DNA of 64,000 nt from Eledone cirrhosa (Eukaryota). Shown piece by piece: positions 15,828 through 53,346 of the stretch. The DNA lies in NCBI GenBank assembly GCA_964016885.1, contig OZ024743.1, forward strand, positions 97,526,001 to 97,590,000, written 5' to 3'. Positions within the stretch are counted from its first letter, which is position 1. Every line of letters starts with the position of its first letter. Position numbers and translations under genes: made by a program. Under the pieces are notes generated by a model. The model made no database searches and had not been told where the DNA came from. It saw only the letters and a program-made list of their open reading frames with translations.

Positions 15828-16009
15828 AACGAACGATGTGTGGTAAGGAACCAGATGGACCATAACGCAGAGAGTACTGAATATTTAGGGTAGTAGAGTG
15901 GGTAATAGGAAAATGTTCAAGACCCCGACGGCAGAGCTCAAGCCGTTTCGACGAAACAACCGTCGAAACGGCTTGAGCTCTGCCGTCGGGGTCTTGAACA
16001 TTTTCCTAT
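15828..16009 (-). mobile_element. Hairpin-plus-tail element, copy 1 (perfect 49-bp arms 15905-15953 and 15961-16009)
   Basis: Flanked by (TA)n. Arms contain the 3' half of a hammerhead: GAAA-CGGC-ttgagctct-GCCG-TC. Confidence 0.9.
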
Positions 16010-16341
16010 ATATATATATATATATATAACCCAGCGAGCCCGGAAAACCGTTTGGCTTACACGAATAACTTAGACATAGTTATATTGTCCTGCATTCCAG
16101 AGCACAATAAAACACGAATTAAGGTACAAAACATGTAATTATCTTGTTTAGCCAAGTATTTCCTCTTTATAGCAGAGTAATCTAAACGGGGAGAAATGTT
16201 TCACAAAATTCTCCAAAGAACCCTTGTTTTGTATATTACAATACAAGATGACAGTTATAGAGCCTTTCATACACTATTAACCGACTTATTAATATTTATA
16301 CGGTTTTCCGACTTCTTAATATTTAGACGGATTTTATGTAA

Positions 16342-16518
16342 ATATCGGTAGAGGGTCGGACGCCATGCTTTGCAGCAAAGAGTTACGGCTCTTTATGGTC
16401 TGAGTTCAAATCCCGCCGAGGTTAAATTTGCCTTTCATCCTTACGGGGGTCGTTAAAATAAAGTACCAGTAATACACTGGGATAATTGATGGCCTTGTGC
16501 CAAAAATAGAAACAATTA
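16342..16518 (+). mobile_element. Octopus-type SINE
   Basis: B-box-like gagttcaaatccc; core tttgcctttcatccttacggggg; tail ggccttgtgccaaaaatagaaacaatta. Confidence 0.9.
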
Positions 16519-19500
16519 AACCGATACTTATATTTAGTGTTTAGTAACAAGAAGAGTGTGAAAGAAGATTTTGTAAAATGAAAATTCTATATATCTGCGT
16601 TAAAATGCTTTAGGAAAATATGATAAATATTTACATAAAATGTAAACTACATCTGACTAAAAATTAATGTAGAATATGTACATAATGGATAACGTAAAAA
16701 ATCCACAAACTTTCGTATACAAAATTACTTTACATATAACACAAGGACCTAACTATTCCAATAAACTGGCGCCCTTTCCTTGCTCAGATTGTCTACCTTT
16801 ATACATATATGATATCAAACCGGGAAAAAAGATAAACACCGGTTTATTTGATCATGGATATCCAGGAAATAAATATACTGATTTACATTAAAATATATTT
16901 CGAATCAATACCACAGTATGGAGTATATACAAATTTGATTTATTATTTAAAATTTATAATTTGTATCCCGAAATACAATAAATGCGATGTAACCGTCTAT
17001 ATGAAGTAGTCGAGATACAACCGATCAATTTCCTGAAATGTCAAATCATACTGCATTAATACTTTAATGTCAAAGACTCTCCACTTGATTTCATTTTAAC
17101 CAGTTTCCTTAATCTCCTTGGACAGACATGTACGGAATGTCACCTAAGCAGCCTTATATTGTTTATCACAGTATTTTACCAGCATCTTGTGCATTAGAAT
17201 TCTTTTGACACACATTATTTAAAATGTATAAATCTACCTCTTTCTCCAGATTTCATTTCAAACAAACCGATAAAAGTATATTTATAGATAAATGCAACGA
17301 TATGCGATATTAACGTTACAGATGCATATATTGTATGTGGGAAAGGTATTTGGGGAACATATAATATATATAAGCAAAACATTGTTAAGCATTTATTTTT
17401 ATACAGTTTTTTAATGAATACAATTACATTACTTATTCCTATTAAAAGTCCCTTTTATACTAATCTGTAATTTGATACTGACGATCATGTGACTTGATTG
17501 CAGTGTAAAGAGAAATGGCTGATGATCACCCATTGATTCAAGAGCTTCGTTTCCGGCTTGGGCTGCAACCATTGTTGTCCTGATGCCTGTCACCGTCCGT
17601 GCACTCAGATGGGAAAATATGAAGAACAGTTTGCTGATGATCACATCACAGCTTGATACTACATCATTGGCAATGAGTTCAAAGTTTGCCAGGATAAGTA
17701 ATATTCTTTTGTCTAATGACTTTATGACTACAGTTCAGAATCAAACTGAGTCAGGCTTTTTCTGAGATGTATTTATATATGTGTATTTTTTTATATTTAC
17801 TGTGATCGAAGTGACAACGCCTGAAGTGAACATAGACATTTATTTTTAACCCAAATTCACTAACACGTGTCACGCATTTATGGCTGGGAGGGGGGAACAA
17901 CATATTTACCATAATCTTTGCGCGGTAAAGGTTTTGTATTTCATCCGCCGCCCTTCTAAAACAACCAGGAATCTGTTTTGGAGCGTCATTTTTAGTGACT
18001 GACATCCCGCAGCAGGTAACAAGTCTGGTATTTTCTTAAGTCAAGGGAAATAATCATTTATAAAATGGAATCTGCTAGCGATTTGGTCTGATCAACACTA
18101 TGAATATTATATTCACACAGACACACACAGACACATACACACATGTATACACACACACACACACACACACACATATATATATATATATATACATGCATAC
18201 ATATATATACGTATATATATACATACATGCATACATATATATACGTATATATATATATATATATATATATATATATATATATATATATATAAACATGTGT
18301 AATATATTGTGAAATCAAAATTGATTGAGACATGCCAAGATAATTTGAAATTCAATGTGTGAGTGTGCTTGGCTAATTGTTTATGCATGGTTTGTAAAAA
18401 TCTAAAATATGTTTGGCTTTATTAAATATTCGAAATATTGCGTCTAAATTTTCCCACTCTCAATATTTTCTGTATGCAAAAAAAACAAAATTAACTAAAT
18501 TTTTATTGTCACTAATTTTGATGCTATTTTGAAGAGAGAAAATAATCAAAATAAGCTTTTTGTACTTCAAATTTTTAATTGTTAATCTGTCTTTCAATGT
18601 TTTGAAAGTTTGCAACCTTAACGCTTTATCTACTGATTGAGTATCTTTTGTGAGCTAATTGTCAAAATATCAAATATGAACAGACGCCATTTGAAACTGT
18701 GATTATGCTAACATTGAGTGCTGCGCACAAGAAACTGTCATTCATACTTTGTCATCAACGAATCAGTTTGCATTAAAACCAGGCCTTTTTTAAATTCCAT
18801 TATGACGTTTCTTGGTTCATCATACAATTGATATTTTTGTAAAAAGAAAATATTTTCCAACTTTCTTGGCATAGAATATCCATTAAAGTTTCTTCTTCCA
18901 ACAATGGACAGACGGATTGTGATCTATCTGATGACGACTGTTGTAAAACCTATATACATCAATATTTATTGTAACAGCATTTACAGTAAATGAATAACAA
19001 TTGTTAATAATAAATGATTGATAGCTATCGTTTGATAAAATCTTAAAATTAGTTTAATTATTAAGGATAAAGAGGTAATAGCGAGATTATGGCCATGATG
19101 GTGAAACAATAATTTCAAACACAAATCGTAACAAGGTTTAGAATTTTATTTATCAAAATGTTATCTCTTATTCATTTAGGCTAGACTAAATAAGCATCTC
19201 ATCGTAAAATACTTGTCAGAGCTATTTAGGTATCATTCTTATATAGTGCATCCCTCCCACCAAAGTGTTTATATGTTCAAAGCTGCTCACAATCAGATGA
19301 TATATATCTATTTGGGACATTGTGTTAGAAATGGTGGATTTCAGAGATGTAACTCTCGACTACAACTTATACGTAAGAGTGTAATGGATTCTTGTCGGGA
19401 GAGCTAGGAGGCCATATCTTTGGGATAACATGATCCTGAAGATTGTAAGACATCCTTTTTGGGGTCGTCTTCGTTTTATGAAATGGTGCAGTCTTGTTGG

Positions 19501-19619
19501 TAGTTGCACAGTTTTCCTTTGTTCACGCTCTCTATTCAGAGCATCAAAACCCTCCCCAATACCTCCTTATAGTCAGAAACGTTGACCCTCGAGACTTGAG
19601 GTGAGACATGAGGAGGGGT

Positions 19620-51110: not shown

Positions 51111-51255
51111 ATAAACATTACTAAAAACAATAATTGTTTCTACTTTTGGCACAAAGCCAGCAATCTCAGTGCATTACTGGTACTTTGATGCACTGGGATA
51201 ATGTCTGGCCTTGTGCCAAAAAGTAGAAACAATTATTATTTTTAATAATGTTTAT
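51111..51255. repeat. Palindrome made of two opposed SINE 3' tails plus shared flank
   Basis: ataaacatta..aataattgtttctacttttggcacaa..cagtgcat / atgcactg..ttgtgccaaaaagtagaaacaattatt..taatgtttat. Confidence 0.85.
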
Positions 51256-52269
51256 GTTTGAAAGTGCGAAACCACTACAAATAACGTCACAAATTGAGCA
51301 TTTTCCTAGTTAAGACATGCAATCAATACGTGTTTTGTTTTCCTGTAGCCATTAACAAAAAGCAACAGCAATGCACAAACAGTATCTTTCCATAGTCCTG
51401 CCGGCGACAATTTTGGTACTACGTGTAACAAGTAACTTTAACTCGACAGCTATATCCATTAAGAACAAAATACCGTCAATGAAAATAATTCTACCTGGCA
51501 AGTGAAGAGGAGTACAACCAGCTAAAATATATCCTTAGTGTAACTTTCGAAAAAGAGATTAATTTATGTATATATCCTACTCCCAAAAGGAGACATAAAA
51601 CGACAATAATAAGCAGAAACTGGATAAAGAATTTCTGCTTTCTACCAACGAAATCAGGGGTGAATATTAACAATAAATTAGGTTGCATTTTGACAAATTA
51701 ACGTTTGTTTATATGCTCTAGTGCCGACTGTACAACATTGTCTTTGTGATATTTGAGATGTTAACAGAAGGAAAACAACACAAAAATATCATTAAATGTT
51801 TTAAAAATAGAGAAAAAAAATATCGCTGACATAGGGAAAACTATCGTTCATGTGACACTGCTTATCTCATATAAACAAAACCAAAAAATCTATGCTCCTC
51901 CCCAACAAAGAGTGAAGGATAAAATAGAAATGATGTTTGGAAACAGTACATTCAGAACTCTTCAATATAATTTTATCACCTCAAAATAAAACTTGAGAAT
52001 TGTCAGCAAGAAATCTCGATATAAGAATAGGATGAAACTATAAGGATATAAAGGCAAATTAATATATGTTACTGCAGACCCGTCCCGAAACGACTGGTAC
52101 TTTTTGGAGAAAAATATATGGCGAGGATAAAAAATCCAACTAATAGGCAGTTTCATTGAAAAAGACCCGAACGAACAACTGCCATTGCATTACATCACAT
52201 ACAGACAGTATTAACGATGATAACTTTCAGACTGTGCTAGGAAAACCTCTACCACATGCTCTCATATAA

Positions 52270-52960
52270 CTACTGGTTGACATTAGCAGAGACATGATTG
52301 GTCCCCCAAAACCAAAGAAACCCTTGACACAATTCTAGCGATCCATTGTATGCCAGAACCTAATGTATATAATATATACAATCAGTGTGAGCCTATTCCA
52401 CCAGGGTTACAGTGACAACAATAATGTCACAGATGAGTAATCAGTTGGGAGTAAAGAAGTGGGGGAGTGTATTGAGCAACTCATAATTAACGAAATAGCG
52501 ATGTCAGAGGTACGGCGACATAAGAAGAATTTGGTTATAGTCTGGCTGGATTGCATGAAGGTAGATGATATTGTACCTTAATCACAGCTCTAAAGATCAT
52601 ATCTTCCTTCGACGTCACTGTCTTGAAATTGAACACAGAGAAGGAAAGCTATGTTGTCGCTGATATAATCGAGTATGGTAGAGGTATACTTCAAGGTGAC
52701 AGTCTCCCTGTGATACACTATATACCGTCAGTAGCCCTTCACATTTATACAGAGGAACTAATATGGATTCGCAATTGTTTCATAGGAACTCAGAAACACT
52801 AACCTAACACAGCCTCTTCATTGATTACCTGAAACTGTATGCCAATAATATAACTGATATAAAGCAAAACCTCAACATGGTTATGACATTCTCGAAAAAT
52901 ACAGGGATGAGGTTTGGCCAAGATAAATGTTCCTATATGATTGTAAAGCGAGGAAATATT
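52270..52960 (+). pseudogene. Ancient R4/Dong-like RT remnant
   Basis: 'KKNLVIVWLDCMK..D.VP', 'RGILQGDSL', 'LFIDYLKLYA', 'GMRFGQDKCSYMIVKRG'. Confidence 0.8.
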
Positions 52961-53162
52961 ACAAACCAATCTAGCATCATCACTATCATTGGGCTATCGA
53001 TTTCACCGTTATCAAAAGGAGACTGCTACAATACTTAGTAATAAATGTAACTATAGCCTCTGATGTAATTTCTAACAAGGAACAAGTAACACACACACAC
53101 ACAAACACACACACACAGACACACACACACACACTCACACATATGTATATGTATATATATAT

Positions 53163-53346
53163 AACAAAGGAATTGTGGTAAGGAACCAGATGGACCATAA
53201 CGCACCAGAGTACTCAATACTTAGGGTAGTAGAGTGGGAAATAGGAAAAAGTATGACCCCGATGGCAGAGCTGAAGCCGTTTCGACGTCCAGAAATAGCC
53301 GTTGAAACGGCTTGAGCTCTGCCGTCGGGGTCAAACTTTTTCCTAT
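53163..53346 (-). mobile_element. Hairpin-plus-tail element, copy 3
   Basis: Same family as the 15.8 and 20.2 kb copies, in (TA)n. Confidence 0.9.

What the first reader, a model, noticed from the sequence alone, without database searches (positions are those of the whole stretch)
15828..53346. Three-copy family whose hairpin closes at hammerhead stem II, with copy-specific variants mirrored in both arms
Seen: each arm has a textbook hammerhead 3' half (GAAA-CGGC-ttgagctct-GCCG-TC-ggggtc: stem III, GUC site, stem I strand). The CUGANGA half is missing because the fold-back point lies just upstream of GAAA in all three copies. Variants are mirrored within a copy (aaaatgttcaagacc/ggtcttgaacatttt; aacaagtatgac/gtcatacttgtt; aaaaagtatgacc/ggtcaaacttttt) and the loops differ. 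Inference: the second arm is made anew at each insertion, for example by cDNA snapping back on stem II and self-priming, or arms are homogenised afterwards. This gives a mechanistic footprint of how the inversions form.
Basis: partly seen in the sequence, partly recalled or inferred. Interest (0 to 1): 0.75.

Follow-up and report, generated by a model that had tools for sequence, protein, structure and literature searches.

The report
Twin-primed Penelope stubs, split ribozyme
These three hairpins are short, protein-less ends of a very abundant Penelope-type jumping gene; each is likely two separately started DNA copies that ran off the front of the element's RNA, which likely begins inside its hammerhead ribozyme, rather than one copy folding back on itself.

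Summary
The three hairpins are real. They are head-to-head stubs of a Hydra-clade Penelope-like element (PLE), with at least 30,333 arms in this genome and intact 784-codon, 3,531-bp tandem copies elsewhere.

Long copies carry the missing ribozyme half, but as the known U3-A8 variant (UUGANAA), with a ~40-nt loop II. The 'copy-specific' variants are subfamily tags.

Snap-back self-priming is disfavoured. 122 of 128 minis pair a short-ended arm with a tailed arm, and either arm can reach further upstream. Arms stop sharply at one base (-40) in loop II, often with an extra G absent from long copies. That G sits on the short arm as often as on the tailed arm (14:14). A TATA-like box lies 29-31 nt upstream.

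Best reading: both nicked (TA)n strands prime cDNA, at two internal sites near the RNA's capped front; both run off and are joined. The transcript would thus start with half a ribozyme. No RNA data were available to test this.

The architecture is published. This scan earlier noted two-ended priming in this genome and cap-G stubs in other genomes.

The parts
15829..15953 (-). Copy 1, tailed arm (B): element positions -26 to about +97 (0 = C of the GUC site); hammerhead 3' half at 15927-15949 plus ~80-nt tail
15953..16006 (+). Copy 1, short arm (A): positions -34 to its TTCC end; reaches further 5' than the tailed arm; 1-nt overlap at the joint
20240..20377 (-). Copy 2, tailed arm (B): positions -40 to +97; reaches the inferred RNA start
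20378..20429 (+). Copy 2, short arm (A): positions -34 to +17
53164..53287 (-). Copy 3, tailed arm (B): positions -26 to +97
53287..53343 (+). Copy 3, short arm (A): positions -39 to +17; reaches further 5' than the tailed arm; 1-nt overlap at the joint
15820..16028 (.). (TA)n target runs on both sides of copy 1 (the same holds for copies 2 and 3)

Best explanation
Each hairpin is a head-to-head pair of short end-pieces of a Hydra-clade Penelope-like retrotransposon in a (TA)n run, likely made when both nicked target strands primed reverse transcription at two internal sites of the element RNA and both copies ran off its likely capped 5' end, which lies inside loop II of the hammerhead.

Shown: the parent element (intact ORF, tandem units); the full U3-A8 hammerhead sequence in long copies; two fixed 3' ends at +17 and +97, each followed in the element by TAT; one of each end per insertion; a sharp 5' limit at -40/-39; an extra G before A(-40) on either arm; a TATA-like box 29-31 nt upstream.

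Inferred: transcription starts at -40 and the G is the copied cap; the RNA holds the two priming sites near its front as well as at its far end; each target strand primes at one site; the two cDNA ends are trimmed and joined with 0 to a few nt of overlap or filler. The front of the RNA would hold only the 3' half of the ribozyme, so it could not cut itself there, which is why stubs cross the GUC site and lack the 5' half. Stubs also lack the TATA-like box and are probably dead ends.
For: Parent: 784-codon ORF with Hydra motifs and a 3,531-bp tandem unit carrying the same end sequence.

Ribozyme: core TTGA-N-AA in 77 of 84 long arms, with position 7 variable (G45/A20/C16/T3) and the other six positions at 82-84 of 84; both folded natural copies give the three-way junction.

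Ends: 122 of 128 head-to-head minis are one short plus one tailed end; 50 of 53 in the position-ordered sample.

5' limit: 53 of 151 arms end at -39 to -41.

Extra G: before A(-40), G versus A is 89:11 and 90:10 in the first 100 listed rows of two genome-wide junction searches (114 and 276 matches; hand counts). Long arms have T 78, C 1, G 0, and 5 unreadable of 84. In 133 loci not selected for the G, G:A is 15:2 at -40 against 7:14 at four neighbouring positions, p = 0.0009.

The G-bearing arm is the short one in 14 and the tailed one in 14 of 28 clean pairs (40 loci fetched). The short arm reaches further in 24 of 54 young pairs at 93-100% identity to the intact element, mostly 98-100%. TATTTAAA or TATTTATT in 75 of 84 long arms; the box starts 29-31 nt before -40 in 78 of 84.

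Literature: a purified PLE protein nicks and extends both strands, starts at two internal sites bracketing the tail, and prefers uncut RNA (PMC11167929); an extra G marks the cap in full-length L1 insertions (PMC11702581).
Against: No RNA evidence: the only RNA run found held 0.06 of the words, as contigs, with one contig outside the ribozyme.

The extra G shows an RNA 5' end but could be untemplated addition at an uncapped end. Recombination between the arms could flip the centre after insertion and so move the G to the short arm; later deletions could shorten the tailed arm. The 11 of 110 pairs whose arms share no sequence often join at short repeats and may be such deletions.

69 of 73 pairs share a subfamily tag (shuffled mean 28.4), which snap-back also predicts; only 1 of 73 differs by two or more letters.

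Arms ending at -39 are preceded by C 10, T 7, G 7 times, which this model does not explain. About a fifth of arms run past -41, so they came from longer RNAs. The hammerhead folds are not more stable than shuffles (z -0.36 and -1.33), and cleavage is untested.
Confidence: 0.75

Rival explanations
1. Snap-back self-priming (first reader; proposed for PLEs in PMC3846280): one cDNA primed at the tail end folds back near its 3' end and copies itself to make the short arm; centres later flip or delete.
For: Arms share subfamily tags in 69 of 73 pairs and are closer within than between loci (0.060 vs 0.108; 0 of 10,000 permutations). Many joints show 1-7 nt overlap. One short and one tailed end per insertion is also expected under this model.
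Against: The short arm reaches further 5' in 19 of 50 and 24 of 54 young pairs. The extra G is on the short arm in 14 of 28. 3,639 junctions have both arms reaching at least -40 with 0-8 nt between; among the 50 loci listed, 4 have no spacer and 2 have the extra base on both arms (hand count). Centre flips would have to affect about half of even the youngest copies. The ends do not match the native stem II pairing.
Confidence: 0.1
2. Two separately primed cDNAs as in the best explanation, but -40 is not a transcription start: it is a processing cut or a reverse-transcriptase stall in loop II, with an untemplated C added at the cDNA end.
For: No transcript ends were available. Many reverse transcriptases add untemplated bases at template ends (recalled). 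The C excess before -39 ends is unexplained.
Against: The G excess is specific to -40 (15:2 vs 7:14). A TATA-like box sits at promoter distance, and the start reads TT-A-GTC, like an initiator (consensus recalled; an initiator-like word in a pLTR is noted in PMC3846280). The TTTAG could be a splice acceptor, but then arms would start after the AG, not at the A.
Confidence: 0.1
3. A ready-made palindromic mini-element (MITE-like or a non-autonomous master) spreads as a unit, or arms are homogenised by gene conversion after insertion.
For: High copy number; a few joints recur, such as -34 joined to -40.
Against: Joints vary from copy to copy even in the youngest subfamily; the recurrent joint occurs in both orientations relative to the tail; arms group by subfamily, not left versus right; no private tag is mirrored and only 6 of 49 older pairs are identical; the ends are unequal and identical to those of the full-length PLE.
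Confidence: 0.03

Closest known systems
Hydra clade of C-terminal EN+ Penelope-like elements (Craig et al. 2021, PMC8557442; passages, section 11, and part 2 of 59 of the supplement read)
   Same: Single RT plus C-terminal GIY-YIG-type ORF with RW(K/R), DKT, CxCx5C linker, no CCHH inside GIY-YIG, CxxC and CxH; (TA)n target; 3' hammerhead; tandem and inverted 5'-truncated copies; tail at one end.
   Different: Unit 3.5 kb rather than mostly under 3 kb; tail 80 nt rather than the 30-40 nt given for PLEs. Every Hydra hammerhead in the part of File S2 read has CUGANGA and a loop II of at most 10 nt, whereas this one has U3-A8 and ~40 nt. The listed Hydra-1_Obim hammerhead has different stems, so this is another family.
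U3-A8 hammerhead variant of Schistosoma mansoni Cercyon PLEs (Cervera and De la Pena 2014, PMC4209133; parts 1-2 of 4 read)
   Same: U3-A8 in place of C3-G8, short helix I core, G10.1-C11.1 pair, palindromic loop III, mostly solo or opposed truncated copies.
   Different: Here helix III has 4-5 pairs, loop II is long, and the inferred RNA start lies inside loop II.
Poseidon element PAc of Anolis carolinensis (Frangieh et al. 2024, PMC11167929; parts 1-2 of 4 read)
   Same: Two internal reverse-transcription starts that bracket the tail; both target strands nicked and extended; AT-rich target; ribozyme cleavage not needed; predicted dimer.
   Different: Different clade. The parts read do not tie both-strand extension to inverted genomic copies, and do not map the transcript start or a cap mark.
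Inverted-pLTR insertions of Adineta vaga Penelope (Arkhipova et al. 2013, PMC3846280; passages read)
   Same: Head-to-head inverted pLTR, optional tail on one arm, palindromic joints, TATA- and initiator-like words in the pLTR.
   Different: That paper explains the inversions by self-priming; the data here favour two separately primed cDNAs.
L1 twin priming and cap-G (PMC11702581; passages read)
   Same: Second target end primes a second cDNA; extra G at the 5' end of full-length copies.
   Different: L1 twin priming gives non-overlapping inverted pieces with a chance second site; here both starts are fixed and both copies cover the same stretch.

Membership tests
EN+ Penelope-like elements | Single ORF with RT and GIY-YIG endonuclease | tested here: met
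   784-codon open frame (717 aa from the first ATG) with RT motifs and VIY...YIG read directly; 2,049 homologues, the best with a Pfam GIY-YIG hit. The query itself has no Pfam or PDB sequence hit.
EN+ Penelope-like elements | Tandem or partial-tandem units forming pLTRs, and inverted 5'-truncated partners | tested here: met
   Five ribozyme sites spaced 3,531 bp in L090-L091; inverted partners.
EN+ Penelope-like elements | Tail on one end only | tested here: met
   122 of 128 minis have one short and one tailed end; tail 80 nt.
Hydra clade | RWK motif, DKT motif, CxCx5C linker | tested here: met
   RWR in the query, RWK or RWR in all 15 aligned relatives; DKT; CNC-x5-C (definition).
Hydra clade | No CCHH cysteine pair between GIY and YIG; CxxC and CxH near the conserved E and N | tested here: met
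   One cysteine between VIY and YIG; CNLC before E; CKH after N.
Hydra clade | Insertion into (TA)n | tested here: met
   All three window copies and nearly all sampled arms.
Hydra clade | Canonical hammerhead at the 3' end | tested here: inconclusive
   A complete hammerhead is present in the expected place and sense, but with the U3-A8 core and a long loop II.
Hydra clade | Phylogenetic placement of the RT among named Hydra elements | not tested
   No named Hydra proteins were among the tool results; placement rests on motifs.
Neptune clade | CCHH motif within GIY-YIG and CX2-5CxxC linker | tested here: not met
   Absent. My first label 'Neptune' was recalled and is withdrawn.
Type I hammerhead ribozyme | Conserved core 3-9, GAAA, NUH site, three stems | tested here: met
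   In long copies only: UUGANAA, G10.1-C11.1, GAAA, GUC, stems I-III. Not in the window stubs, which lack the 5' half; no hammerhead family among the 105 Rfam matches.
Type I hammerhead ribozyme | Self-cleavage | not testable with these tools
   No excess of arms starting at the cut site (12 of 100 listed at +1, 12 at -2, hand count).
MITE | Fixed internal sequence, equal terminal inverted repeats, left and right arms as separate lineages | tested here: not met
Non-LTR retrozyme | Tandem short units each with a complete hammerhead (bioRxiv 2026.07.22.740005, part 1 of 5 read) | tested here: not met
   Stubs are head-to-head and lack the 5' half.

The most novel reading that the evidence does not exclude
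The element starts its RNA inside its own ribozyme so that the hammerhead is split: the capped front is a substrate strand, and the catalytic 5' half exists only at the far end of the same RNA or in read-through tandems. Front and far end could pair into a complete ribozyme that removes the capped 40 nt or circularises the RNA, making the hammerhead a switch between translation and use as template.
Probability: 0.15. Interest if true: 0.72.

Novelty: new variant of a known kind. Interest (0 to 1): 0.46.

Why it matters
How PLEs make their inverted ends and what their hammerheads do are stated open questions (PMC8557442). This family offers tens of thousands of joints that can separate the published self-priming model from two-ended priming, and the extra-G test favours the latter, matching the in vitro result that both strands are extended. 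It also predicts an exact transcription start inside the ribozyme, which a single 5'-end experiment can test. It explains why searches for CUGANGA or Rfam models miss this family. The element class, the inverted-plus-tail architecture and the U3-A8 core are already published.

Tried and rejected
Rfam scan of the window: no hammerhead match, only microsatellite-driven miRNA hits.

CTGANGA within 8-38 nt upstream of the motif: 19 matches genome-wide, all chance or mutated contexts on inspection. That window is shorter than the true distance, so the test that counts is (2 of 84 long arms have CTGANGA anywhere in 130 nt).

A CTGATGA on the opposite strand (9 matches): the common letter there is different, so it is not a second ribozyme. 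A guessed longer upstream sequence from L007 matched only itself.

Neptune label: rejected on motifs. Pfam and PDB sequence searches of the ORF were blank.

Sequencing runs: no usable RNA; the contigs of X5-X7 only repeat the two ends. Footprint of cleaved RNA at +1: none.

'Arms share little sequence' as proof against snap-back: set aside, because several such cases are deletions between short repeats. The Fisher value printed (4e-7) is overstated because T and C cannot appear at -40 by construction; one search replaces it. The (TA)n-joined arms show G before A(-40) in 9 listed loci, but interrupted repeats can supply a G, so they were not used.

I compared arms by a distance matrix, not a tree; the own partner was strictly nearest in only 4 of 49, because arms are about 40 nt and subfamilies are large. 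The co-fold of the two halves restates the same pairing and is no evidence that it happens.
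Full report
Numbering: 0 is the C of the GUC site and +1 the next base, so GAAA starts at -22. 'Short arm' (A) ends at +17 and 'tailed arm' (B) at +97.

Observation. The 23-nt motif occurs six times in the window, as three head-to-head pairs, against 0 in 100 shuffles. The copies lie at 15829-16006, 20240-20429 and 53164-53343 between (TA)n runs. Each has one short and one tailed arm. The joints are -34/-26, -34/-40 and -39/-26 (short/tailed). 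Rfam finds no hammerhead here.

Family. The genome holds 20,798 exact copies of that motif and 9,535 of a 40-nt variant from a younger subfamily: at least 30,333 arms. Longer copies lead into an RT-endonuclease frame. A search with it returned 131 scored matches, including intact 784-codon frames and a 3,531-bp tandem array. The motifs are those given for the Hydra clade in section 11 of PMC8557442: RW(R/K), DKT, CxCx5C, no CCHH pair, CxxC, CxH and a (TA)n target. Pfam and PDB gave no hit for the ORF itself, and I built no tree with named members.

Ribozyme. Of 459 distinct arms in the loci then held, 84 reach the 5' half. There the stem I strand is followed by TTGA-N-AA in 77; position 7 varies four ways while the other six positions are at 82-84 of 84; CTGANGA occurs anywhere upstream in only 2. 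U3-A8 is a described covariation in Schistosoma PLE hammerheads (PMC4209133). Two natural copies fold into the three-way junction, though no better than shuffles. Loop II is about 40 nt.

Mirrored variants. The variable stretch at about +5 to +15 marks subfamilies: the window's tags occur at 7, 12 and 38 sampled loci. 69 of 73 pairs with recurrent tags share them (shuffled mean 28.4, maximum 38), and no private tag is mirrored among 114 pairs. Arms are closer within than between loci (0.060 vs 0.108), yet only 6 of 49 are identical. So both arms come from the same source at insertion and then drift apart; there is no sign of homogenisation. Subfamilies active at different times would also give such pairing, so this does not prove one RNA molecule.

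Ends. I fetched 77 loci covering the first 100 listed motif hits and 70 loci from the first 100 young-subfamily hits, of which 14 overlapping ones were dropped. In the first set plus the window, 50 of 53 head-to-head pairs are short plus tailed; over all sets, 122 of 128 (which includes 40 loci chosen for their junction). Both end points are followed in the element by TAT, which can pair with a nicked (TA)n end (inference). This matches PAc in vitro: two internal starts bracketing the tail and both strands extended (PMC11167929).

The 5' limit. 53 of 151 arms end at -39 to -41, with shorter ends trailing to -22 and about a fifth longer. Long arms have T (78), C (1) or no G at -41, 5 unreadable. 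Yet in junctions where neither arm explains a purine there, G outnumbers A 89:11 and 90:10 among the first 100 rows of two searches with 114 and 276 matches (hand counts; 2 of the 90 are ambiguous). In 133 loci not chosen for it, G:A is 15:2 at -40 and 7:14 at -41, -37, -36 and -35 (p = 0.0009). An extra G marks the copied cap in L1 insertions (PMC11702581). A TATA-like word starts 29-31 nt upstream in 78 of 84 long arms; the TATA and initiator consensus are recalled. I infer a capped transcription start at -40, inside loop II. No RNA data could test it.

Snap-back or two primings. Snap-back must start from the tailed cDNA, so the tailed arm should contain the short arm and alone carry the RNA-end mark. 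Instead the short arm reaches further in 19 of 50 pairs, the tailed in 23, equal in 8. By BLAST the short arm reaches further in 32 of 56 older and 24 of 54 young pairs. Among 40 extra-G loci taken from the first 100 rows, the G is on the short arm in 14 and on the tailed arm in 14; 12 could not be typed cleanly. 3,639 junctions have both arms reaching at least -40 with 0-8 nt between. The escape for snap-back is later flipping or deletion of the centre, which would have to affect about half of the youngest copies. I cannot exclude it formally. Against my reading: tag sharing is near complete, and C before -39 ends (10 of 24) is unexplained.

Role of cleavage. Arms starting at +1 are no more common than at -2 (12 and 12 of 100 listed, 201 matches, hand count). 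This fits templates that are uncut at the front, where only half the ribozyme would be present, and fits the PAc result that cleavage is dispensable.

Comparison with what is known. The inverted copy plus one-sided tail is the standard PLE layout (PMC8557442), and self-priming was proposed for it (PMC3846280). Searches listed no paper whose title, abstract start or read passages describe a cap-G in PLE stubs, two-ended priming as the cause of PLE inversions, or a start site inside the hammerhead. The library lacks most subscription papers, I did not read the older Penelope promoter and structure papers, and I saw only part 2 of 59 of the Craig supplement. Earlier scan notes, seen after I had written down my reading, report two-ended priming in this genome and cap-G stubs in other genomes, where several place the start before the ribozyme. 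They are unchecked AI notes and I do not count them as support.

Verdict. A Hydra-clade PLE remnant (about 0.95), with a well-supported but inferred mechanism (0.75). What is new is modest: a U3-A8, long-loop Hydra family whose RNA likely starts inside the ribozyme, and a genomic test that favours two primings over self-priming. Interest 0.46.

Noticed in passing
window 7808-10945: A 3-kb inverted insertion between (TA)n runs (arm blocks of 820, 321, 143 and 131 nt at 92-97%) with a CTGATGA...GAAA motif near 10840-10885 and an unpaired stretch at the left end; looks like another PLE family with the same layout.
   Followed up: partly
window 58429-58796: Hairpin with 179-nt arms at 98% and a 10-nt loop beside (TA)n, with a CTGATGA...GAAA motif near 58689-58730; a third hammerhead-like family, related to sequence near 53625-53790.
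   Followed up: partly
window 35509-36917, 38665-41904, 63090-63839: Broken non-LTR retrotransposon frames; Pfam RVT_1 hits for 35509-36498 and 40066-40914, none for the three other pieces scanned.
   Followed up: partly
L136:3543-3741, L138:1980-2179, L294: A few insertions whose two arms look like different subfamilies; would point to two RNA molecules in one event.
   Followed up: partly
L250, L232, L226 and rows: Arms starting at -39 are often preceded by C or GC instead of A (10 of 24); possibly misreading of a modified first nucleotide. Unexplained.
   Followed up: no
L236:702-944, L242, L249: Joints filled with several short repeats of the -23 to -34 stretch in both orientations, suggesting repeated template switching during end joining.
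   Followed up: no
L112, L113, L121, L163, L201, L228: Second cluster of tailed-arm ends near +50, at a short word shared with the -37 region.
   Followed up: partly
L090-L093: Head-to-tail arrays of four or more near-identical intact units (period about 3.53 kb), implying recent activity.
   Followed up: partly
window 27993-28501: Tandem array with a ~41-nt period.
   Followed up: no
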